From Pseudovirgaria hyperparasitica (taxonomy: Eukaryota): a stretch of 64,000 nucleotides of DNA. The stretch lies in NCBI GenBank assembly GCA_010093815.1, contig ML996584.1; one strand, written 5' to 3'. A model generated the notes under the pieces. It was not told the DNA's origin. It worked only from the letters and a program-made list of their open reading frames with translations, and did no database searches. Both the position numbers and the translations under genes were made by a program. Of this stretch, positions 1,704-62,918 are shown in pieces (position 1 is the stretch's first letter; each line of letters begins with the position of its first letter).

Positions 1704-3064
1704 ATGCGTGCTACTGCAGTCCTCATCGCCATCTTCGCGAGCTCCGCGCTTGCAGCTCCTCTCAACGCTGTAAGCTCCCCTAACGATCCCCCACCTTTTC
1801 ACAATTCTCCACTGCCTTTTACAGGTGGTCCATCTTGCCGGAATATGCAGCTAACTCAATACTACAGGCCCGCCAAGCTGGAGAGGCTGATGGCTACTCC
1901 TATGGCTACGGCCACGACGTGAAGAGCGGCCATGGCGAGCATAAGCGTCAAGGTCCCGGAGGCGAAGACTATGGCTACGGCTATGGTATGGAGAGCAAGA
2001 GCCAGGGCGGCCACAAGAAGCGCCAGGGCCCTGGTGGTGAGGATTACGGCTACGGATATGGACACGAGGAAAGCAAGGGTCACGCCGGCCACGAGAAGCG
2101 TCAGGGCCCCGGTGGTGAGGATTATGGCTACGGATATGGCCACGAGGAGAGCAAGAGCCATGCCGGTCACCCAAAGCGTCAGGGCCCCGGTGGTGAGGAT
2201 TACGGCTACGGATATGGCCATGAGGAGAGCAAGGGCCACGGTGGCCACGAGAAGCGCCAGGGACCTGGTGGTGAGGATTACGGCTACGGATATGGACACG
2301 AGGAAAGCAAGGGTCACGCCGGCCACGAGAAGCGCCAGGGCCCCGGTGGTGAGGATTATGGGTACGGCTACGGCCATGAGGGCAAGAGCCAGGGCGGCCA
2401 CGAGAAACGCCAGGGCCCCGGTGGCGAAGACTATGGTTACGGATACGGCCATGAGGGCAAGAGTGAGGGTGGCCACTCCAAGCGCCAGGGACCCGGTGGT
2501 GAAGACTACGGTTACGGATACGGCATGGAAAGCAAGAGCCACAGTGGTCACGAGAAGCGTCAGGGTCCCGGTGGTGAGGATTACGGCTATGGATATGGCA
2601 TGGAGGGTAAAAGCCAAGGCGGTCACCCGAAGCGCCAGGAGTCTGATGAGGCCAACCCTCTAGCCGCACTCGCACCAAAGAAAGAAGAAGGTGGCGAGGA
2701 GAAGAAGGAGCAGGGCGAGAAATCCGAGCCCCAATCCAACCCACTCGCAGCACTAGCACCTCAAGAGGAGAAGAAAGGTGGCGAGGAGAAGAAAGAGCAG
2801 GGCGAGCAATCATCCAACCCTCTCGCAGCACTAGCACCTCAAGAGGAGAAAAAGGGCGGCGAAGAGAAGAAGGAGCAAGGTGGCGAGAAGAAGGAAGAGG
2901 AGAGCGAGGAAGAGAACCCTCTCGGCCGCCGCCTTGAGAACCCAATCGACCCCCTTGCGAAGCCTGTCGCCGACAAGATGCAGGGCAAGGCTGAGGAGAT
3001 GAACAAGGCCCAAGAGGCTGGAAAGAGCCCCCTCGGGCCTCTCGTCGAGAACAAGGGTAACTAG
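1704..3064 (+). CDS. Secreted Kex2-processed repeat protein (KEP), peptide precursor
   Basis: Exon 1 (1704-1769) is signal peptide MRATAVLIAIFASSALAAPLNA; intron 1770-1867 (GTAAGC...CTAAC...CAG); exon 2 has one variant unit plus nine QGPGGEDYGYGYG(H/M)E...GH-x-KR units, then an acidic E/K-rich tail with NPLAALAP repeats. Confidence 0.9.
1949..2635 (+). repeat. Coding tandem repeat, nine units of 75-78 bp
   Basis: Units of 25-26 codons delimited by KR codons (mostly AAG CGY); differences in the core are synonymous. Confidence 0.9.
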
Positions 3065-34896: not shown

Positions 34897-35533
34897 TCAG
34901 AGTCTTCTAATCCTTCCCTGTTCTCTCAATAACGACTTATGGAGAAGCATACCCACCAGCCAACCAGAAATCATTCTTATCATAGAGGCCGAGATCACCA
35001 CCACGAAGATGACCAGAGACCAACCCCAAGCCGACTGAGCCACATCTACGAGAGAGAATTCCGGGACCGTCAAATCACGCGCACCGATCTCCCCATAGCC
35101 TACAAAGGTTCAGCACTATTTAGGAGCCACGATATGACGCGAGAACTCACCCGGTCCGGTCAAATCAACACTCAACTCAGTCATATTCCTCATTGCGACA
35201 TATCCATCAGACCCTACGGAGGAGGTTAATACTATTCCAAAGCATATCTCCCATGATACGTCTAGATATCTCACGAATAGCACGCTGGCGCACAGGTCCG
35301 AAGGCAAGCTTGGGAATGTTTATGGTAAAGACACCACAGACAGCCAGAATGATCAAGAGGATGACAGTCAAGCTGCTGACAGAGAGGCCAAGGTACCAGG
35401 GGCCGATGTTGACAAGGGAGCGGTAGAAGGCGCGAAGTTTGGTGTTCAGAGATGCAAAGAAACTGCTAGATCTTGGAGCCGAGCTGGTTTCGTCCGGGTT
35501 GTAGTATAGGGGAAGAGCGTGGTTCTCGGACAT
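34897..35533 (-). CDS. Hypothetical two-TM protein (three exons)
   Basis: Introns GTATCA...ATTAAC...TAG and GTGAGT...TAG join MSENHALP...REISR, RSDGYVAM...LTGP and GYGEIG...WSLVIFVVVISASMI...RIRRL* in frame. Confidence 0.6.
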
Positions 35534-36307
35534 CTTGGAGGAGAAAGTCAGGATCTATCGTGTATGCGATATGGAACGTTAACGTGCAGGGCAATGCTGG
35601 GTCGAGGTGAGCTTTTCTGGTTTGTAAGTACTGCCGGTTGAGGAGCTGTATAAAAAAGTAGAGCGACAGGAGCAGATTTGCTGTCTTACATGAGATGTAT
35701 ATGATTCTGTGTAGCGCCATATCTAATGCCTTTGGATAGTGATGACCAGTTTTGCCGGGAGTGGATCTGAGGTTCGGCGAGTGGGTCTGAAGTTCGGCGA
35801 CTAGAGCCGGAGTGGAGTTTGTGGGACGGGTAATTAATGATGGATGTCGCAAAACATGTGCTCGATACTCCGATGAGATCTCGATCATGTTGGCACTAAT
35901 AAGAAAGATGTCCTATGCCACTGTTATGTTTAAGATACCTACTACTTCGCGTGGGCAATGACTCGCCCGTTCGTGACTCAACTGGAAAGTGGAGAACTGC
36001 AGCCAGAGGCTATCTCGCTCACTGTATGGCTGCATCCATTGATCCACATTGACTTTGCACTGTGTTGGGGAGACATGACGAATCAAGTAATTAATTAGAT
36101 TATGTATGATGGAAGGGATATAACAGGGGTAGTTTATGGAGTGAGATCCTGACTAAGGAGTAGTGCACAGACACTAGCGTGAATGTGTCCACCATTGTAG
36201 TTCAACGTCACCATGCTCCACCCCAAACTTGGTCACAACTCAAGTGACGCCTTGCTTAGCCATGACAAAAGAGATGGGTATCTGATCCTACTTTGATGTT
36301 TCGCTGT

Positions 36308-37756
36308 TCACAGTCCAACAGTCCTTAAAGTATGTGACAGTGAGTTCCCGATCGGCTGCAAGTTCGGGAGCATGGCCGCGACGAATCGATCTGGGAATCT
36401 GCTACTGCCATGAATCAACAATGGCAGCACAGCTATTCCCCACATGAAGTATGTCAAGCCGATCGCCATGTTGATGCGAATAGCGATGATGATGGATCTG
36501 AGACGCGCAGCAATCCAGTTGCGAATGGGTCGATTCTTCTTTGCTGCTTCAGCGGCTGCGAGCGCTTCAGAAATCTTCAGCGCAACCTTGTTGTTGATCT
36601 TTTGCCAAGTAGTATTGAGCGCGATCGATCTCGCTGTCTGCGACATTTGTCTTCTGAGCTCAGATGACTGGATAAGTCTCTGTGTCTTCGCAACGAAGTT
36701 CCTAACGTCGTCTGGTCGAATGAGATGGCCAGATTTCTCATCAACTACAATCTCAGACGGCCCTCCTTGATCCCGTGCGACCACTGGCAAGCCACTCGCC
36801 ATCGCTTCCAAAACAACCAGACCAAAAGTTTCGGTGATGGAACAATGCAGGAACAAATCAGCTGAAGCGTAGACGCACGCCAATGCTGCACCCTTACGGA
36901 ACCCTGTGAATACAACCCTGTGCTCCACACTCTTGAACAATTTTTGCACATCTTCTTCCACTGCGGGATTCTGGTTGCCACCTGTAATGACCATCTTGAA
37001 ATGACTTCCTGCAGCATCCAACCGCTGGACGACCTCAGCCAAAAACCCGAAGCCTTTCTCTGGAGCTATTCTCCCAACACATAGCAAAATGATCTCGCCA
37101 TGAGGAGCAATCGTTTTGCGAAAGTTCATGTCTCTCGCTTCTGGTCGGAATAAAGCCGTATCTACGCCTCTTCCTAAGTGGAAGGTCTTACTCATCGGCG
37201 CGCCTGCTTTCTCGAGATATTCGCGGACCATTCCTGACGGATAAAAGATGGTATGAACGGCACTATGGCTGAAAAGGAAGCCTTGTACCAGTGCTAGTAA
37301 CCATACGGCATACTGATCCATCGGCTTGGGAAATATGATCTCACTGTATGCGGAAAGGTCGGTTTGAAAGTTCAGCATCACAGGCGGTGGTGAACCCATT
37401 TGTCGAATCTGTAGAAGAAGCTGGAAGCCCACGGATGCAGGACTCGCCAGATATATCAGATCTGGGTGAAACGACTTGCTATATATAGTGTCGAGGCGGA
37501 GAGGATATGCGACTGTCAAATCTGGATTGTATGGTAGAGGGTATCCATCAAGTCGAACTTCCGGATCGTTTCTCGCATTCGTCACTGTTGTTGGTCCCGC
37601 GAACTTGGGCGCCACAACAGCTACCTGCGCTCCATTGTCGCGGAGATATTGGATCAGACTGCCTGTAGTCCTACTGACACCGTTGATTGGGCCAAGTGAC
37701 TCAGTCGCCAGCAGAATCTTTCGGCCCTTGAGGTCTTGAGGAAAGTTCTGGTCCAT
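36308..37756 (-). CDS. GT4 glycosyltransferase, SQD2/Agt/MgtA-like, with C-terminal hydrophobic helix
   Basis: Intronless 482 aa; KILLATESLGPINGVSRT, RGVDTALF, VGRIAPEKG, EX7E motif ETFGLVVLEAMASGLPVV. Confidence 0.88.
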   Translation of the reverse strand: MDQNFPQDLKGRKILLATESLGPINGVSRTTGSLIQYLRDNGAQVAVVAPKFAGPTTVTNARNDPEVRLDGYPLPYNPDLTVAYPLRLDTIYSKSFHPDLIYLASPASVGFQLLLQIRQMGSPPPVMLNFQTDLSAYSEIIFPKPMDQYAVWLLALVQGFLFSHSAVHTIFYPSGMVREYLEKAGAPMSKTFHLGRGVDTALFRPEARDMNFRKTIAPHGEIILLCVGRIAPEKGFGFLAEVVQRLDAAGSHFKMVITGGNQNPAVEEDVQKLFKSVEHRVVFTGFRKGAALACVYASADLFLHCSITETFGLVVLEAMASGLPVVARDQGGPSEIVVDEKSGHLIRPDDVRNFVAKTQRLIQSSELRRQMSQTARSIALNTTWQKINNKVALKISEALAAAEAAKKNRPIRNWIAARLRSIIIAIRINMAIGLTYFMWGIAVLPLLIHGSSRFPDRFVAAMLPNLQPIGNSLSHTLRTVGL

Positions 37757-38472
37757 CTTCTCAGTAGTTGAAGGCTTTCAAAATTGCGGCTCAAGCGATG
37801 GCACGAACGTTATGTCACTATAATGTCTGCGGTGCGTTGTATTGACCAGGACCAATGTTTGAAGCAAATTCCACGTAAGAAGAACCTGCGACGTGGAGGA
37901 ACTTGAAATTCCGAAGTCGCCCTTCCCATGATGTAGTCGCTGCAGAATTATCCTCATCATGCGGGGTATCTTTGTGAGGTGGGATGCTCAGTGTCTAGCT
38001 CATGACAGAGGGTTGAGATAGGAAAGTTGATGTTTGTCCCACGAGACGGCGGATTCACTTCTGATTGGCCGGTAGCAGGCATCACTTGAACCACAGATTC
38101 AGGGTCCACGGCAACATCAGGGCCTGGCATCTCGCAACGTGCGACGGTTGGACGTCAACACTCGAGCAGAATATAATATTGATACGATGACTCCACGATA
38201 AAGAACCGCGTCGCACGAATGGACTGTTTGCTGCCACCACGAGATCTCCACCGCGTGCTTATTGCCACTCTTTATTTTCGATGCAAGCTTGTCCGGGGAG
38301 GATGGCCACTACTATGTACCATTCACTCGACACATGACTTGGCTTGTAATAATGGCAAACGCGAGATTGCAAAGCGGGCCTCGGCCGTTGCTGTCGCACT
38401 GCCTTCATCTCTTGTCCCTATATGTGCGTGACCATACCTCCACTTTGACTGCGACAGCACACGACTTCCAGC

Positions 38473-40530
38473 ATGAATATGGTTCAATTCAGCTCAAGTG
38501 CCTCAGATGAGAGTACATTTGATCTATCTATGCGGTCAACACCTCCGGAAAGAAGCCTGTTGAGTGGCACTGCGCAATCAGATGCCACCATAGAGACTCG
38601 TTTTACAAGCCTTTCGGATCTTATCTCCCTCGAGGAGTCGTCCTCACCACAAGACAGGCAGCGAATACTGCCAGATATCCTCAATCCTGCCAGCGCCGCG
38701 GGAATTCCTGTGAGGAATGTTTGTTTCGTGGGAGCTGGGTATGTAGGTATGGACCACATTTCCTCTCAATCTCATCGATCCTATCTCACGTGTGCCTTGT
38801 AAACTACCGTCTGACCGACCTAGGGGTTCCAACTGCTGCAGTCATTGCTTTGAAAAATCCATCATTGCGCGTGACAGTCATAGACCGCGACGAGAGGCGC
38901 ATACGAAGGTGGAATTCTACACATTTACCACTTAGCGAGCCAGGCTTGAATGAGCTCGTTCGAATCACAAGAGATGGCTGTAAGTTTTCTTGGTCCCACA
39001 AGGAGAAGCCGAAGGCGGTCACAGCATCCTTCGAACAGGACGTTGAAGAACAGGCTATAAGGACCCCCAACCTAAATTTTTCCACGGAAACCGCGAAATG
39101 GATTGCGACTGCAGATATGATATTTATCTGTGTTAACACTGGAACAAAGACCTCGGGTGTGGGAGCCGGTTCTGCCACCGACATGACTGCATTCGAAGGC
39201 GTAGTACGAGAAATTGCAGCCAACTCAAAGACAGGAGCCATACTGGTCGAGAAGAGTACAGTGCCATGCAGGACTGCAAAGTTTGTCCAAGACATTGTCA
39301 GTTTGAGAACTCAAGCAGGCAGCGAATCTGATACTGACCATAAAATAGCTCGAGAATCTCAGGCCACGGGCGAGGATGCAAGTGCTCTCCAACCCTGAAT
39401 TCCTTGCGGAGGGCACGGCTGTCGCAAATCTTCTTCATCCAGATCGAGTAATCATCGGGTCTGCCCATACTGTTGAAGGCCATCGAGCTGCTGCCGCCTT
39501 GGCCAAACTATACACATCATTTGTTGATCCATCGCGTATCCTGGGTACTCATGTATGGTCGTCTGAGCTTGCAAAGTTAGCTGCAAACGCCATGCTAGCA
39601 CAGCGCATTTCCAGCATCAATTCTATTAGTGCAATATGCGAACAGACTGGTGCCGACGTCCACGAAGTAGCAAAAGCGATGGGCATGGATCCACGGATCG
39701 GAAGTCAGTTCCTCAAAGCAGGTCTAGGCTTTGGCGGAAGCTGTTTCAGGAAAGATATCGGTAGTCTAGTCTATCTGGCTCGTAGTCTGCATCTGGACGA
39801 TATTGCTGACTACTGGGAGAGTGTGACGAAGATCAACATGCTCCAGCGCACACGTTTCTCTAAGATGGTTGTTCAGCGTCTCAACGGCACGCTCGTGGGT
39901 AAGAAAATTACACTCTTAGGATTTGCTTTCAAGAAGAACACCGACGATACTCGTGAGAGTTTAGCCGTCGACATCATCAGCAAACTTCTCGAAGAACGCC
40001 CCGCCGAAATCGCAGTATTCGACCCTATATGTCTCCCGGAGAACATACAGCGCGAGATCAATACGCTTGGCCCTCAGTACAATAACACAGACAAGGTCAA
40101 GATCTATACCGATCCCTATCAGGCATCTATGTCCGCATCCGCAATCTTGATTATCACTGATTGGGACTTTTTCAAGAATTCACCTTCAAAGCGCCCTGCT
40201 TCGTGTTCATCGTCTCCCACGACAAAGCCAGTCGATCAACTCGGTCTGAACCTCTCCCCTGAGCAGTTTTTTCCTCAGCCCTCGTGCCCGGATGACTGCC
40301 CGGACTGCAAGATCTCTTATCAGGGGTACGGAGTCGGTTCGGACGACAGGATCGAGTGGGCAAGGATAAGCTACCACATGAAAAGGCCGCGACTGCTCTT
40401 CGATGGTAGAGACGTAGTCGACCCAGCAGAGATGGGGGCTTTGGGCGTCAGGGTCATCGGCTTGGGGAGGACTGAAACTGGTTATGGTGGTGGAATGAAT
40501 ATGGGCATGAGTACTGGTTTTGGGTACTAA
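38473..40530 (+). CDS. UGD1: UDP-glucose 6-dehydrogenase
   Basis: VCFVGAGYVG/GVPTAAV, VEKSTVP, LSNPEFLAEG, SELAKLAANAMLAQRISSINS, catalytic GFGGSCFRKD, FKKNTDDTRES; two introns. Confidence 0.95.
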
Positions 40531-52394: not shown

Positions 52395-53856
52395 CTATAC
52401 ATTGATTAACTTACCCGATGAGCCTGCGCTAAGGTTAAGCCGAGCCACGACGACTCTAAGGTTATACAGACACCTTGGGAGATTGGTTCCCTCCACAGGG
52501 GTTAAATCCCGAAAGTGGTCACCTTTAGTGGACAAGGCACACTCAACGGCATTCTGATAGATCTCCTCGAGCGTTATGTTATACTTCGTATATAATTTGT
52601 CTGATCTTTCTGGCGCAATGGGTTTGAAATGAACGGCGCCCTCGGCGTTACATACTTCATGTATTTCCCCGATTCTGAGACAATGCTGTATGACGATGTC
52701 AGTAAAAGGCATGAGTATACACGTTGCAACAAACATTATAGTACTCCGGCCATCCAGGTCTAGGATGTTTGGTGGTAACATTCATCCAGCGCCCTTCTGC
52801 ATAATGATGGCAGATTGCCTCATCTGTCACGGCAGGTTCTTCCCCCTTTTCATTAAGCTTCCAATGAGTTTCTACAAAGATACCCATACCGTATTGGCTC
52901 AAAGCCTGTCCAACTATGGCCTTTTGCTGTAGACTTTCAGTATTGCAAACCTCTTGTCGATGCGAAGAACATACCAAGTTTCTACCAAAGATTTTTACCG
53001 TTTCCTCAGCTCGGACACTTGTCGTTGCCTTATCTTGAATCCAGTTACTGCTCGAGAATATCATTGCTATACGCTGCGCATCATGATTCCAATTGCCTTC
53101 CTCTGGCAGAAGCTTGTCCAGGGGGGTCTGCGGCACGTCTATGCCCTTAAATATGGCAGACATAGCTGACCTTATGTCTTGGTTCTGCTCTTGCCATATT
53201 TGACGCAGGTAATGTTTTATCTCGGCTGCTGGGAATTCCTTGGAAGTCTTCTCGTTGAGCATGTCCAAGCTCCTCGCCGTCCCAAAAGCAGCCATCGCTA
53301 GGGAAAAGATTGTGTCTGCGGGAAAGTCCAGTTTAACCGCATAGATGAAAAACAGCAAGTTGTTCACGATAGACAAGGCGAGCGGTTGCTTGTACTCTTT
53401 AGGCTTGAGATCTTGCATGATAGAGTCAAGTTCGAGACCCTCCTGGCCGAACAGTGTATCTATGAGCGTCCCAACCAGCGCATGAAAAGAATACATGCTA
53501 GCCGCCGCCATTCTTATGAAGTAAACCTCAGGAGGGGTGAAGTCCGTACAACGTAGGCTTGGGAAAGGACATACGTCCTGGGCAGGATATTGATCGCAAT
53601 GTAAGCTCGATGATCCTTGGGAACCTCCAGCGGTTGTCGCAAGGTCCATATTGTGCAGCCAGTCTACCGGCCCATTCTTGCGCAAGAAAGCCTCCAGGAA
53701 GGCGGATGCATTTGATTTCGTCCAAATGTCTGGGTCGTTTTCAGAGATAGCACATTTTTCGGTTGCGTTAGTGGACGGCCACTGCTCTGCTCGAGTGACG
53801 TGCGCATCGATTGCGATTGAGGATATGAGAAACGTTAACAGAATATTACAAAGCAT
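52395..53856 (-). CDS. Predicted secreted Cys-containing protein of unknown function
   Basis: Signal-like MLCNILLTFLISSIAIDA; spaced Cys (LHC...VCPFPSLRC); probable in-frame intron near 52924-52972 and a second intron joining to ORF 52395-52781. Confidence 0.65.
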
Positions 53857-56674: not shown

Positions 56675-58435
56675 TCAACCTCCGGATATCAGTTGTGGAT
56701 AAAAGTCGTACGCCAAGACTTCAGGACCCTCCCATTGCTCACCATACGGGTTCGTCGACGTGCCGGCGAAGAATTCGTTATGCGCTTGTTGCAGCACGTC
56801 TAGCCACGACGATGGCTCAGGCTGTTTTGCCCACTGGTTGTGGATGTGGTAGGCGTATGAGCCCCGATAGAAATTTTGCATAGTGCGATTGCTTGGTGCA
56901 AATCGATCACGGGTCGCGTCGTAGTTGGCTACGATGCCTACATTGCGGAGAGCAGTTTTCAGATCGGACACTGAGCTACTGCGATCGGCCAAGATGGATG
57001 CAAGAATAGCGAGAGAGCTCCCTTCTTGGACTGAGTCAAGTTTGGTCTTTACGTTCTGTGGGCGGGAAAGATCGAGGGTCTTCAATGGCGCGCCCTCGAA
57101 CGCGGACCATTCAGCGTCAAACTTTTGCGCTCGAAACGCATCGTCTATCCAGGTGAGGCAAGGTACAGTGCACTGGCCTTCATATCCTTCAAATATTGTC
57201 CAAACAGGATCGAAGGCTGCATCGTTGAGCTTGAGGAACTCCTTGTCACGACCATCGGTGAGAGCCATCTTTCCAACTACCCGTGGGTGGAACATTGATC
57301 CCATCCGCACAGCACCTAGTAGGAAGTAGGTCGACAGACGTGACTGAGGACTTAGCGACATTACGGCCGTGTTATAGTCCCCTGGTGCGACCGCAGTGCC
57401 CCATCTTTCGGCCCAAGTGTGGTTTTTAGGAAGCAGAAGCGGCCTTAAATCGCGCAACAGTAGCATATCAATATCGAGATACACGCCTCCGTGCATGTGA
57501 AGCATAATGAATCGCACCGCGTCAGACAGCGCGGCCGGCTCGAAGGGCATGAGCTTAGGATCGATATCAACTCCAGGAAGGTCGAAAGGATGTTCATCAG
57601 GAGGTAGCGGCACCCAGGACGGGAACTTCCACGGCTCGACACGTAGATCCCCTCTCTCGACCAGTGGGAGGAATCTTGCGAAGATTGGATGACTCAATGT
57701 ATCTCTGACAGCGTTTGGATTACTATCCGCATCAAACCACAGCCATAGCTGCGAACAGGGGATGTTCTGAGTGAACAAATAACTTTTGATGAAGGCCTCC
57801 ACGCGCCATGTCACACTTCCCGACCAGTATGTGTGGTATGGTATTACGGGCCCATGGCATGCTCCGCGGGAGGTGCTTGTGGGGGCCTGGTACTCTGGGT
57901 ATTGCTGCATTGTGTTGTGATTGCCATCAGCGTTATCATATTCGGCATGTTGAGGATTCTGTGCGCTCGCTCGTAGAGTGATATCCGGGAGGCTGTAGTA
58001 AGAACTTTCGCCCTCTGCCAGAAGCTTCATACAGCTTGCAATATCTCTTATCTTTTCGTTCTGGACATAGCTTCCCCGACAGGTTTCGACGATAAGTTGT
58101 ATGTCGGCTTCGGTATCGACGTCGGGTCGAGGTCCTAGGTAGTCAGGGCGATTCTCGACGCTGTGAGTAGGTCGATTGAATACATTGGCAGCGGGGTTAA
58201 TCTGCATGGACCGGAGAGGATACGCCGCCGACGTGTTTACCAACAGCAAGAGCTCTGCTGGAGTGCTAGGGACATAATGTCTAGCGTCGCCTCTGTACCA
58301 TGCTGCGAGTATCCAGACGACCCGGATGAGGAGCTCTGTGACAAGAATATTTCTCAGGATTTCGAAAACCTTGTATGCCTGAGGAGGTAGGTTGCGTTTC
58401 ATCGCAGAGTCAGAAACCAGCGTGTCTGCACACAT
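56675..58435 (-). CDS. GT32-like DxD glycosyltransferase
   Basis: YHTYW, FIKSYLFTQN, LSDAVRFIMLHMHGGVYLDIDMLLLRDLRPLL, YNTAV, AYHIHNQW; N-terminal hydrophobic segment. Confidence 0.82.
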   Translation of the reverse strand: MCADTLVSDSAMKRNLPPQAYKVFEILRNILVTELLIRVVWILAAWYRGDARHYVPSTPAELLLLVNTSAAYPLRSMQINPAANVFNRPTHSVENRPDYLGPRPDVDTEADIQLIVETCRGSYVQNEKIRDIASCMKLLAEGESSYYSLPDITLRASAQNPQHAEYDNADGNHNTMQQYPEYQAPTSTSRGACHGPVIPYHTYWSGSVTWRVEAFIKSYLFTQNIPCSQLWLWFDADSNPNAVRDTLSHPIFARFLPLVERGDLRVEPWKFPSWVPLPPDEHPFDLPGVDIDPKLMPFEPAALSDAVRFIMLHMHGGVYLDIDMLLLRDLRPLLLPKNHTWAERWGTAVAPGDYNTAVMSLSPQSRLSTYFLLGAVRMGSMFHPRVVGKMALTDGRDKEFLKLNDAAFDPVWTIFEGYEGQCTVPCLTWIDDAFRAQKFDAEWSAFEGAPLKTLDLSRPQNVKTKLDSVQEGSSLAILASILADRSSSVSDLKTALRNVGIVANYDATRDRFAPSNRTMQNFYRGSYAYHIHNQWAKQPEPSSWLDVLQQAHNEFFAGTSTNPYGEQWEGPEVLAYDFYPQLISGG

Positions 58436-60656: not shown

Positions 60657-62918
60657 TCACTCGAGCATCATGTGATGTGCCCTAAGTGCTCGCTGATACA
60701 GCGCTACCATTGGTCTTGGGTGCACTCTCCTCAAGTCCCATAATGACACCATCAACCTCCCGTCCCTAACAGCCCCATGTATGAGTGCGACCCAACTCCC
60801 AATCGTCCTCTTCTTCCTCCCGTCAATAACGTTCTGATCCACATCGAATACGCCAGGATGCTCCACCAAACCACGATGCAGTGGCACGCCAAGCACACCA
60901 CGGACAAACTCGTAGCAAGCCTTCGATGCCTTACCTAGATACGCAGCTGTTGTGGGCGCGCTGAAGAACGCGTCACGATGAGAAACGTAACGCGCGAGCA
61001 ATGCAGCACCGAGCTCTTCGCGGAAGCGCTGCGTGTCCGAGAGAGAAACAGGGCAGGCCTGCGACGCGAGATGTGCAGTGAGCACAGGGACCAGTGCAGC
61101 GGCAGTTGCGTCGCAGCGCTCACGAGCATCGAGTGTCGCACTTGCGTACCAAGTCGCAGCGAGCGTCTTTACGAGCTCGGCGTGTAGCTCGTTTGAGACG
61201 GCATCGGCCAGAGCAGGCGTCTGGGTGATGAGTCCTCGCAAGGAGGTATTGAAAGAGGCGAGGAAAGAAGCGTGGAGGACGCGCAGGTCGAGGGCCTGGC
61301 ATGTGGTGTAGAACATGCTGGCGCACATCAGTTGCATGACCTCGACGGCCTGCATGGTGTAGCGCGAAGTCAAAAGAGCGAGCGAGTTGATGGCTTGGTT
61401 GTGCATCTCGGCTGACTGCACATGGCTGGAAACAGGATTTGCGAGGAAGCCGAGCTCGGATTGGTACGCAGCCATGTTGACATCGATACCCTTGAGACAG
61501 AAAGACAGGCTGGGGTCGTCAGCGGCAAGATTTGGCGGGAGGCCATTGTTGAGTGTGTTGTTGATTATCTCGGTGGCTTGAGCAAAGACGAGCTTTCCGA
61601 GCATCTGGAGACAGGAGCGCGTCTTTTCGGATGCGAGGGTGACGGCGGCGGCTTGGAAGTTGGCACCGCTATAGATTTCGGAGCGCTCTGAGTCAACTAT
61701 TGGATTGTCGGAAGTGGAATTCAGCTCTGTTGTGATCTGAACTGAGGCCGAAAGGAGGTCTTCCAGTACAGGGGACATCCATTGCGGGGCGCTGCGGAGG
61801 GCATATCGCTCCTGAGCGAGGCCCGTCTTGAAGCGGTCTTTGTCTCCTGACAGACCGACAACGAGCTTGGAGCCGGCAAGAAACGACCGAAAATTGCATG
61901 CGGCTTCAATCTGGCCACTGTGTGGTCGAACGTCGGCTATGAATGGGTGTGTCCATTCGACATTGGCTGCAAGGGACTCGGACGCCATTGCCGTCAAGAC
62001 CTGAGAGACGACGGCGAGATTGTTCGCTTCATATACGGCTAAGCTGGCTACCGCAGCAGAGGCTGCCGTTCCATTGATTAGACCGAGCCCTTCCTTTGGA
62101 CCTAGGATGACTGGTTCCAGGTTCAATCTTCGGAGAGCATCGTCTGCGGAGGTAGTCAGACCACCATATGCACTCCCCATCCGGACATGAGTATCTGGAC
62201 AACCCATGATGGCGCTGGCAACGTAGGACATAGGCATTAGATCCCCAGATGCCGATACAGACCCACGGAGGGGAACAAGCGGCGTGCAATCGTTCTGGAT
62301 CAGCTGGATCACCCTTTCGGCGACCGGCATGGACACTGCTGAATGGCCTCTGATGTTCGTATTTGCACGAATGAGCATAGCTGCCTTCATCCAGACACTA
62401 GGCATTACATTGCTACCATATTCATCATGGATTTTGCCAGCGATATCTGACTCGGTTACGACTGCCGAAGTTGTGTGCTGAATCAGGGCTCGCTGTAAGG
62501 CAAGAAGGTCTGTCGTTCGAACATCAGCTGATCCCCCGAAGCCGGTGTTTACACCTATGTTCCCAGTCAGCCGATCTAGCCTTTAGGTTGGAGACAAGAA
62601 TGTACCATAAAGATAAGCACCATCAGAGAGATATGACATCAGCGTTTCAACGCTTTCGTTCACCTGGGCCAGCACATCGGGCCGTTTATCGATGGTAGGC
62701 GTACAACGATGTCGTGAAACTGCCACTACACTGGCAATGTCCAAAGAACGACCATCAATGCTAAGCTCTCCCTGAGCAATGAGCTGCTGTAACTTCGTCT
62801 AAGCTCTTTTTGTTTGCTCTGCGTGTGGTCGAGGCCGCGCAAACGAGTCTAGTATAGGCATCTGTGACTTCTGGATGTCTATATCTGGCACGCCTTCAAC
62901 GCCTTCAGCAGTCACCAT
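60657..62918 (-). pseudogene. PAL: Phenylalanine/tyrosine ammonia-lyase with a premature stop at codon 40
   Basis: YG/VNTGFGGSAD across intron 62555-62605, MIO motif GSVSASGDL, KEGLGLINGT, QERYALR, SDNP, GANFQ, AEMHNQAINSL; in-frame TAG at 62799-62801. Confidence 0.85.

What the first reader, a model, noticed from the sequence alone, without database searches (positions are those of the whole stretch)
36308..40530. Head-to-head GT4 + UDP-glucose dehydrogenase: candidate fungal glucuronosyl-diacylglycerol module
Seen: an intronless GT4 with N-terminal ATES.GP.NGV motif, EX7E and a C-terminal membrane helix shares a ~715-bp divergent promoter with UGDH; an AACGTG (CACGTT, Pho4-type low-affinity box) lies at 38136-38141. 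Known: UGDH makes UDP-glucuronate; the GT4 enzymes plant SQD2 and Agrobacterium Agt make glucuronosyl-DAG as a phosphorus-free anionic lipid under phosphate starvation; a glucuronic-acid glycerolipid has been reported in Aspergillus fumigatus. Inference: donor supply plus transferase for phosphate-sparing membrane remodelling. I am not aware of a characterised fungal synthase for this lipid. The single 6-mer is weak evidence.
Basis: partly seen in the sequence, partly recalled or inferred. Interest (0 to 1): 0.72.

Follow-up and report, generated by a model that had tools for sequence, protein, structure and literature searches.

The report
Fungal glucuronic-acid lipid gene pair
This is a real, already published two-gene pair of filamentous fungi, in which one enzyme makes an acidic sugar donor and its untested neighbour most likely attaches that sugar to a membrane lipid, so the neighbour is the best candidate for the missing enzyme behind a known fungal glycolipid, while a role in phosphate starvation has only modest support.

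Summary
An intronless 482-aa GT4 (36308-37756, minus) faces a three-exon, 642-aa UDP-glucose dehydrogenase (38473-40530, plus) across 716 bp, and both are transcribed. The pairing is conserved: consecutive gene numbers in 16 of 27 testable assemblies, same contig in 9 more, Aspergillus fumigatus among the 16. It is not new. PMC4059230 (2014) reported this cluster and named the A. fumigatus partner as UGD1, needed for its acidic glycolipid. My ten paper searches found no test of the transferase. Best reading (0.6): it makes alpha-glucuronosyl-diacylglycerol. It fails the Agt-clade motifs (Gln and Glu where Agt-type enzymes have His and Asp). Its nearest relatives are a Chloroflexia protein and, with moderate support, the actinobacterial MgtA group. 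MgtA mannosylates GlcA-DAG rather than making it, which is the main rival. The 6-mer alone is chance-level (34% of windows), but its extended form GCACGT[GT] recurs upstream of all three relatives with promoter DNA. Phosphate control is therefore plausible (about 0.45) but not shown.

The parts
36308..37756 (-). Intronless GT4 (GT-B fold) glycosyltransferase, 482 aa (P0001); single member of its subfamily found in the genome
   Evidence: covered without a joint by spliced contigs
37676..37708 (-). N-terminal motif, residues 17-27 (ATESLGPINGV)
   Evidence: E19, S20, G22, G26, V27 invariant in 51 of 51 aligned rows
37364..37366 (-). Gln131, at the place of the His that most GT4 enzymes use to bind O6 of the donor sugar (GTcp His104, MshA His109)
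   Evidence: Gln in 120 of 120 homologues; His role from PMC8231724 passages; equivalence of position from the alignment
36806..36832 (-). EX7E donor-binding motif E309-E317
   Evidence: 118 of 120 homologues
36407..36475 (-). C-terminal hydrophobic helix, residues about 428-450, probable membrane anchor; absent from the nearest bacterial relatives
   Evidence: (114 of 118 homologues have a tail window above 1.8)
37757..38472 (.). 716-bp divergent region holding both 5' leaders; CCAAT-type sites at 37852 and 38064
   Evidence: in run X2 the GT4-side contig reaches 38023 and the UGDH-side contig 38117, in run X1 one contig spans the region (contigs do not show starts)
38133..38143 (-).
38473..38746 (+). 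UGDH exon 1
38747..38823 (+). UGDH intron 1, 77 bp, GT..AG
38824..39296 (+). UGDH exon 2
39297..39348 (+). UGDH intron 2, 52 bp, GT..AG
39349..40530 (+). UGDH exon 3; whole protein 642 aa with NAD-binding GAGYVG (87), Lys325 and Cys381 (catalytic roles recalled)

Best explanation
A two-gene module that makes alpha-glucuronosyl-diacylglycerol. Shown here: the two genes, their transcription and splicing, the GT-B fold with an intact EX7E motif, intact UGDH motifs, conservation of the pair across three fungal classes, and that this UGDH is a paralogue apart from the genome's two others, which lie beside GT2 genes. From print (second-hand): the A. fumigatus orthologue of the paired UGDH is UGD1, required for its acidic glycolipid, which is alpha-GlcA-DAG. 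Inferred: the UGDH oxidises UDP-glucose to UDP-glucuronate in the cytosol; the GT4, held at a membrane by its C-terminal helix with the catalytic domains facing the cytosol, transfers GlcA to diacylglycerol with retention, giving the alpha link; the shared 716-bp region co-regulates both. The His-to-Gln change at the residue that binds O6 of the donor sugar may suit a C6 carboxylate (speculative). Control by a Pho4/NUC-1-type factor under phosphate shortage is a further inference, which I put at about 0.45 given the rest.
For: Gene models and RNA. Head-to-head in 2 of 3 metagenome loci with upstream DNA. All 14 UGDHs I labelled GT4-linked fall in one 16-row clade, SH-aLRT 97, apart from the genome's two GT2-side UGDHs. 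PMC4059230 section 15 and discussion passages. Alpha-GlcADG compared with the A. fumigatus lipid in PMC3586718 passages. GT4 enzymes are retaining and several make GlcA-DAG. Hydrophobic tail in 114 of 118 homologues. Best NCBIfam match is a lipid glycosyltransferase, though far under its cut-off (113.6 of 480 bits). GCACGT[GT]: 5 sites in 2903 bp upstream of three relatives against 0.67 expected.
Against: No assay or knockout of the GT4 was found. The UGD1 identity rests on one sentence in PMC4059230; Fontaine 2009 was not held. The nearest characterised group, MgtA, uses GlcA-DAG as acceptor and adds mannose. The Agt-clade His and Asp are not met, and the Asp-to-Glu change cut GTcp activity by over 90%. 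One Penicillium-like locus, L007, has the GT4 with no UGDH within 5 kb upstream or 8 kb downstream. The sordariomycete partner in L009 is closest to a different UGDH clade. For phosphate control: no exact GCACGTG in the 716 bp; only 2 of 6 phosphate-type control promoters in this genome carry GCACGT[GT], against a 27.5% background; neither Neurospora UGDH is induced by phosphate starvation, though neither appears to be paired with a GT4.
Confidence: 0.6

Rival explanations
1. MgtA-like elongation: the GT4 adds a hexose (mannose from GDP-Man) to a glucuronosylated lipid that another enzyme makes from the UGDH's product.
For: Best trees put the fungal clade beside 15 actinobacterial rows that include the Mycobacterium genes lying by menD and menG (support 80/95; 0.915; 90; context; that this is the mgtA position is recalled). 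Shared LASP, [FY]QTD and APxGE motifs. Some Aspergillus orthologues carry the automatic name GDP-mannose-dependent alpha-mannosyltransferase. MgtA activity from PMC3229680 passages.
Against: Identity to that group is only 29-35%, no higher than to several other bacterial GT4s. The sister branch is not starred. No second transferase travels with the pair in the loci seen. The A. fumigatus lipid is cited as GlcA-DAG without mannose. The gene is tied to UGDH, not to a GDP-mannose gene.
Confidence: 0.15
2. A glucuronosyltransferase for another membrane acceptor (ceramide, inositol-phosphoceramide, sterol or a small lipophile); GlcA-DAG is made by some other enzyme.
For: Caulobacter Sgt1, a GT4, glucuronosylates ceramide and not DAG (PMC6445935 passages). 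Acceptor choice cannot be read from the model.
Against: The only UGD1-dependent lipid cited for these fungi is the DAG one. Arg196 and Trp384 are conserved and probably match the DAG-binding Arg163 and Trp320 of GTcp (equivalence inferred).
Confidence: 0.13
3. The same lipid is made constitutively or for development, wall or host-interface roles, with no link to phosphate (a rival to the regulatory part only).
For: Both genes are transcribed in runs of unrecorded condition. These fungi already have BTA1 for phosphate-sparing lipid (induced by log2 7.65 in Neurospora). GCACGT[GT] could serve other bHLH factors, such as NUC-3. Two of the three relatives are Penicillium-like and not independent (P rises from 0.0006 to 0.003-0.015 when one is dropped).
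Against: Only 12 of 3904 patterns of the same form from the 716 bp recur this often in all three relatives, and 6 of the 12 are this one element. CACGTT is a stated Pho4 site (PMC10437122 passage). The genome's best PHO84 match has two such sites.
Confidence: 0.35
4. The GT4 works on a non-lipid glycan (wall or secreted polysaccharide, or a soluble metabolite).
For: GT4 is a very broad family; the best solved-structure matches are MshA and sucrose-phosphate synthase.
Against: Those matches are about 20% identical. The GT2-side UGDH paralogues are the better polysaccharide candidates. The protein has a conserved hydrophobic tail.
Confidence: 0.07

Closest known systems
UGD-GT1 two-gene cluster of Wangiella (Exophiala) dermatitidis HMPREF1120_03278/03277 and A. 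fumigatus UGD1 (PMC4059230; Fontaine 2009, not seen)
   Same: Same gene pair; this UGDH groups with the A. fumigatus and E. dermatitidis proteins; GT4 44-66% identical to fungal orthologues.
   Different: That paper saw one Dothideomycete member; here the window (nearest relatives Glonium, Lepidopterella) and Baudoinia have it. The passages I read give no enzyme test, origin or regulation for the transferase.
MgtA (Rv0557 / NCgl0452), actinobacterial GT4
   Same: Sister group in the best trees; shares LASP, [FY]QTD with Gln for His, APxGE; works on a GlcA-DAG lipid.
   Different: 29-35% identity; the fungal clade is not nested in it; MgtA adds mannose to GlcA-DAG; no C-terminal hydrophobic helix in the aligned rows; ugd within 4 kb in only 1 of 60 Actinomycetota loci.
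Agt (Atu2297) and GTcp, bacterial Glc/GlcA-DAG synthases
   Same: GT4, retaining, proposed same product; GRIAPEKG resembles GRVAXEKN.
   Different: His104 and Asp256 are Gln131 and Glu309 here; 27% identity to an Agt-type proxy (L190) against 46-58% within that clade.
SQD2 (plant sulfolipid and GlcA-DAG synthase)
   Same: GT4 needed for GlcA-DAG under low phosphorus.
   Different: Proxies (labelled from a recalled motif) are 26-30% identical and form their own clade; SQD2 is chloroplastic and also uses UDP-sulfoquinovose.
BTA1 / DGTS synthesis in fungi
   Same: Phosphorus-free lipid made from DAG; one copy in this genome.
   Different: Unrelated enzyme, zwitterionic product, phosphate induction measured; unlinked to this pair.

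Membership tests
GT4 retaining glycosyltransferases | GT-B fold and GT4 profiles | tested here: met
   Pfam over cut-off; model pLDDT 88, Foldseek TM 0.65 to MshA 3c4q
GT4 retaining glycosyltransferases | EX7E motif with Arg and Lys phosphate-binding residues | tested here: met
   E309, E317, R229, K234 invariant in 51 of 51 rows
Published UGD-GT1 cluster (PMC4059230) | UGD adjacent to a group 1 glycosyltransferase | tested here: met
Published UGD-GT1 cluster (PMC4059230) | UGD orthologous to the paired A. fumigatus and W. dermatitidis proteins | tested here: met
   one clade of 16 rows, SH-aLRT 97, quick tree of 36 rows; the E. dermatitidis row was labelled paired from the paper, not from a gene number
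Published UGD-GT1 cluster (PMC4059230) | Production of the acidic glycolipid | not testable with these tools
   needs lipid analysis
Agt/GTcp clade | Asp in FPSXTDTFG (Asp256) | tested here: not met
   HCSITETFG, Glu309
Agt/GTcp clade | His104 of the catalytic dyad | tested here: not met
   Gln in 120 of 120 homologues
Agt/GTcp clade | 46-58% identity within one clade | tested here: not met
   27% to the proxy L190; a sister position is still not rejected, p-AU 0.229. Agt itself was not available.
SQD2/SqdX | Falls in the SQD2 clade | tested here: inconclusive
   apart in the best trees, p-AU 0.201 for joining them; proxies L033, L080, P0201 labelled from a recalled motif
MgtA | Nested in the actinobacterial MgtA clade | tested here: not met
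   sister, not nested; the actinobacterial clade is 100/99, the joint branch 80/95
MgtA | LASP and [FY]QTD motifs | tested here: met
   119 and 120 of 120 homologues; present in the Mycobacterium rows. These motifs are my own diagnostic, not a published definition.
MgtA | GDP-mannose donor, GlcA-DAG acceptor | not testable with these tools
   needs assay
UDP-glucose 6-dehydrogenase | Three Pfam domains, NAD-binding motif, catalytic Lys and Cys | tested here: met
   residue roles recalled
PHO regulon (Pho4/NUC-1 target) | NUC-1 consensus GCACGTG in the promoter | tested here: not met
   5 matches in the window, none in 37757-38472; present upstream of the GT4 in L007 and L008
PHO regulon (Pho4/NUC-1 target) | Second Pho4 site form CACGTT, conserved in relatives | tested here: inconclusive
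   one site; GCACGT[GT] in 3 of 3 relatives; controls in this genome not above background
PHO regulon (Pho4/NUC-1 target) | Induction in low phosphate | not testable with these tools
   no data set for a species known to hold the pair was found

The most novel reading that the evidence does not exclude
Filamentous ascomycetes took a bacterial lipid glycosyltransferase related to the MgtA group (nearest relative seen: a Chloroflexia protein), added a membrane anchor, coupled it head-to-head to their own UGDH paralogue and placed it under a Pho4/NUC-1-type element. The result is a second phosphate-sparing lipid system, the anionic counterpart of BTA1/DGTS, and a GlcA-DAG synthase lineage independent of Agt and SQD2, with Gln for the usual His.
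Probability: 0.27. Interest if true: 0.72.

Novelty: new member of a known kind. Interest (0 to 1): 0.47.

Why it matters
The enzyme that makes GlcA-DAG in A. fumigatus has not been tested in any paper my searches found, and this work points to one single-copy gene (EAL91033 there) that can be assayed directly. Alpha-GlcA-DAG is a CD1d antigen for type II NKT cells, and the tested C18:1/C16:0 variant is said to be representative of the A. fumigatus compounds (PMC6868179 abstract start and passage). If phosphate control holds, fungi would have an anionic phospholipid substitute beside DGTS. The gene pair and its link to the lipid are already in print, which limits surprise.

Tried and rejected
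Agt and SQD2 as the closest kin: motifs not met, trees apart, but not rejected by AU tests. NCBIfam named none of 44 near relatives over a cut-off. Longer homologues P0020, P0042 and the oddly named P0120 hold no extra Pfam domain. Neurospora data (PMC12506109, passages and supplements 1 and 2; file 1 was cut when stored): NCU08228 log2 -1.02 (padj 0.057) and NCU04936 -0.20 (padj 0.068) in 0 versus 7 mM phosphate, neither marked NUC-1-bound. NCU08228 lies with gt2-4, and NCU04936's numbered neighbours are a dynamin-family and a near-silent hypothetical gene, so no pair was identified (ids recalled, then found in the tables). Colletotrichum data (PMC4859067, supplements only; file 8 cut): no pair could be placed. 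My recalled A. fumigatus locus ids brought no usable paper, so none is quoted. Wangiella supplements held no row for the two genes; file 1 could not be searched and figure S5 is not held. No run was listed as RNA; the two laid runs proved spliced but are one sample of unrecorded condition. Earlier scan notes: nothing. Codon GC3 of the GT4 (0.52) equals its neighbours', so no sign of recent transfer. No complex prediction was sent, since binding is not claimed.
Full report
Observation. The minus-strand ORF 36308-37756 encodes a 482-aa GT4 with ATESLGPINGV at 17-27 and E309-X7-E317. Facing it across 716 bp is a UDP-glucose dehydrogenase spliced from three exons into 642 aa. An identical 642-aa protein is on record. 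Contigs of two runs (one sample, kind not on record) skip both introns and cover the GT4 without a joint, so both genes are transcribed. The AlphaFold model (pLDDT 88) is a GT-B fold followed by a long helix at 414-450, and 114 of 118 homologues examined have a hydrophobic tail window above 1.8. The genome holds one GT4 of this subfamily (next match 26%) and three UGDHs; the other two lie near cellulose-synthase-like GT2 genes.

Conservation of the pair. The N-terminal 220 residues found 779 proteins at E<=1e-20 among 1429 candidates; the named ones among the best 120 are Dothideomycetes and Eurotiomycetes, plus one filed under a plant. I compared gene numbers by eye between the GT4 lists and the UGDH lists. 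Of 27 assemblies with both, 16 have consecutive numbers (for example A. fumigatus EAL91033/EAL91032, Baudoinia EMC97072/EMC97071, Z520_05037/05038), 9 share only a contig length, and 2 differ (Glonium, Pseudocercospora eumusae). The listed UGDHs of those two fall with the GT2-side paralogues. Five species whose two entries came from different or unknown assemblies were left out. The lists were cut at 120 rows and seeded with paired UGDHs, so this is not a random sample, and numbers do not show orientation. Directly, 4 of 80 metagenome loci were fungal orthologues: L008 and L009 are head-to-head with a UGDH (gaps about 348 and 1839 bp), L007 has none within 5 kb upstream or 8 kb downstream, and L010 starts inside the gene. 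All 14 UGDHs labelled GT4-linked form a 16-row clade (SH-aLRT 97) with two rows of unknown linkage. The L009 partner is nearest to a separate sordariomycete clade whose relation to it is unresolved.

What is in print. [quoted passage not shown] It states that the A. fumigatus orthologue, UGD1, is essential for an acidic glycolipid, and suggests these fungi make it too. The source, Fontaine 2009, was not held; passages in PMC6994554 and PMC3586718 give the lipid as GlcA-diacylglycerol and compare it with alpha-GlcADG. Ten searches found no test of the transferase; most subscription papers are not in the library.

Kinship of the GT4. Among 50%-identity representatives, the fungal-type proteins are followed by a gap down to bacterial proteins at about 35%. 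In a 54-row tree, nine fungal rows, an unplaced protein (P0127) and a pair including a Chloroflexia genome protein (L095, 38% identical) form one clade (100/100). Its sister is a 15-row actinobacterial clade (100/99), joined at 80/95, not starred, with the bootstrap not fully settled. A 170-row FastTree gave 0.915 and a 34-row quick tree 90. The Mycobacterium and Rhodococcus members lie by menD, and one also by menG, the position I recall for mgtA. Both groups share LASP, [FY]QTD and APxGE. The Gln replaces the His that binds O6 of the donor sugar in MshA and GTcp (PMC8231724 passages and section 5) and is present in 120 of 120 homologues. The Agt clade's His and Asp are not met, and an Agt-type proxy is 27% identical. 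AU tests nevertheless do not reject joining the fungal clade to that proxy (p 0.229) or to SQD2-like proxies (p 0.201). A bacterial origin is likely; the donor is not fixed. A ugd gene lies near the GT4 in 5 of 76 other metagenome loci and 4 of 80 genome loci, 1 of 60 Actinomycetota, so the pairing recurs in bacteria but is not the rule; the fungal UGDH has introns and groups with fungal paralogues.

The phosphate box. The 6-mer is common: 213 of 633 windows of 716 bp hold one, and the NUC-1 consensus GCACGTG (PMC12506109 passage) is absent from the region. The same 11 letters stand in the L009 gap, and GCACGT[GT] occurs twice in L007, once in L008 and twice in L009. That is 5 sites in 2903 bp against 0.67 expected from this genome's density (P 0.0006; 0.003 or 0.015 if one of the two Penicillium-like loci is dropped). 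Only 12 of 3904 same-shaped patterns from the region recur as often (a binned count that scored this pattern 6), and 6 of them are this element. The seventh letter was chosen after looking, though it matches the published consensus. Against this, only 2 of 6 control promoters (best PHO84 match, two sites; one PHO89, one site) carry it, with a background of 531 of 1930 windows, and BTA1 has none (gene starts approximate). In Neurospora neither UGDH is induced, while BTA1 rises by log2 7.65, but no GT4 partner could be identified there.

Mechanism. Most likely the UGDH supplies UDP-GlcA in the cytosol and the membrane-anchored GT4 transfers it to diacylglycerol with retention, giving alpha-GlcA-DAG (0.6). 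Genes, expression, fold, conservation and orthology are shown; the UGD1 requirement is second-hand; donor, acceptor, location and regulation are inferred. The main rival is MgtA-like chemistry, mannose onto GlcA-DAG (PMC3229680 passages; 0.15), then another lipid acceptor as for Caulobacter Sgt1 (PMC6445935 passages; 0.13), then a non-lipid glycan (0.07). Phosphate control I put at about 0.45 if the lipid reading is right.

Verdict. A real feature and a further member of a published but enzymatically untested cluster. Interest 0.47. Papers seen only as passages: PMC6540932, PMC12722247, PMC6912366, PMC3922861, PMC8662359, PMC6868179, PMC10437122. Semeniuk 2014 on Agt was not held.

Noticed in passing
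window 1704-3064 (+), intron about 1770-1867: Signal-peptide-like start followed by nine KR-separated copies of a Tyr/Gly-rich core (eight in the long frame, one just upstream): looks like a KEX2-processed repeat protein or RiPP-type precursor (family label recalled). No Pfam hit; the nearest UstYa match on this contig is about 400 kb away. An ABC transporter and a transcription factor gene follow.
   Followed up: partly
L087 2640-9947 and L089/L090 (G000 contigs C2 and C27): The genome's two other UGDH genes each lie near a cellulose-synthase-like GT2 and a probable GH12-like gene (GH12 label recalled); Neurospora NCU08228 likewise lies with gt2-4 and is repressed by NUC-3. A second, polysaccharide-type module.
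   Followed up: partly
L095 1030-2244; P0133; P0127: A Chloroflexia genome protein (38% identical) and two unnamed proteins are far closer to the fungal GT4 than any other non-fungal hit and lack the hydrophobic tail; no ugd seen in the 6.2 kb held.
   Followed up: partly
L014, L032, L037, L108 (actinobacterial type); L020, L130 (Bacillota type): GT4 followed directly by ugd on the same strand, an independent bacterial version of the pairing.
   Followed up: partly
L100, L126, L157; L013 9147-9947: MgtA-type GT4 frames of 683-728 aa in Microbacterium and Agromyces; the Atlas lists an actinobacterial cluster of GT4 fused to a GDSL lipase, and L013 has a GDSL-like gene just downstream. The fusion was not checked in these loci.
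   Followed up: no
Neurospora NCU00244 (PMC12506109 supplement 1): A gene annotated 'glycosyl transferase' rises by log2 2.0 in phosphate starvation and is NUC-3-bound; whether it is an unlinked orthologue of this GT4 was not determined.
   Followed up: no
window 56675-58435 (-): 586-aa DXD-motif glycosyltransferase-like ORF (PF04488, E 3e-8) next to an aromatic amino acid lyase gene at 60657-62405.
   Followed up: no
window 52699-53856 (-): 385-aa ORF with a signal-peptide-like start and Cys-rich ends, no Pfam hit.
   Followed up: no
window 35098-36086: A spliced minus-strand transcript just downstream of the GT4, with two alternative joints at 35596/35611-35690 and one joint with non-canonical ends at 35911-35966.
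   Followed up: no
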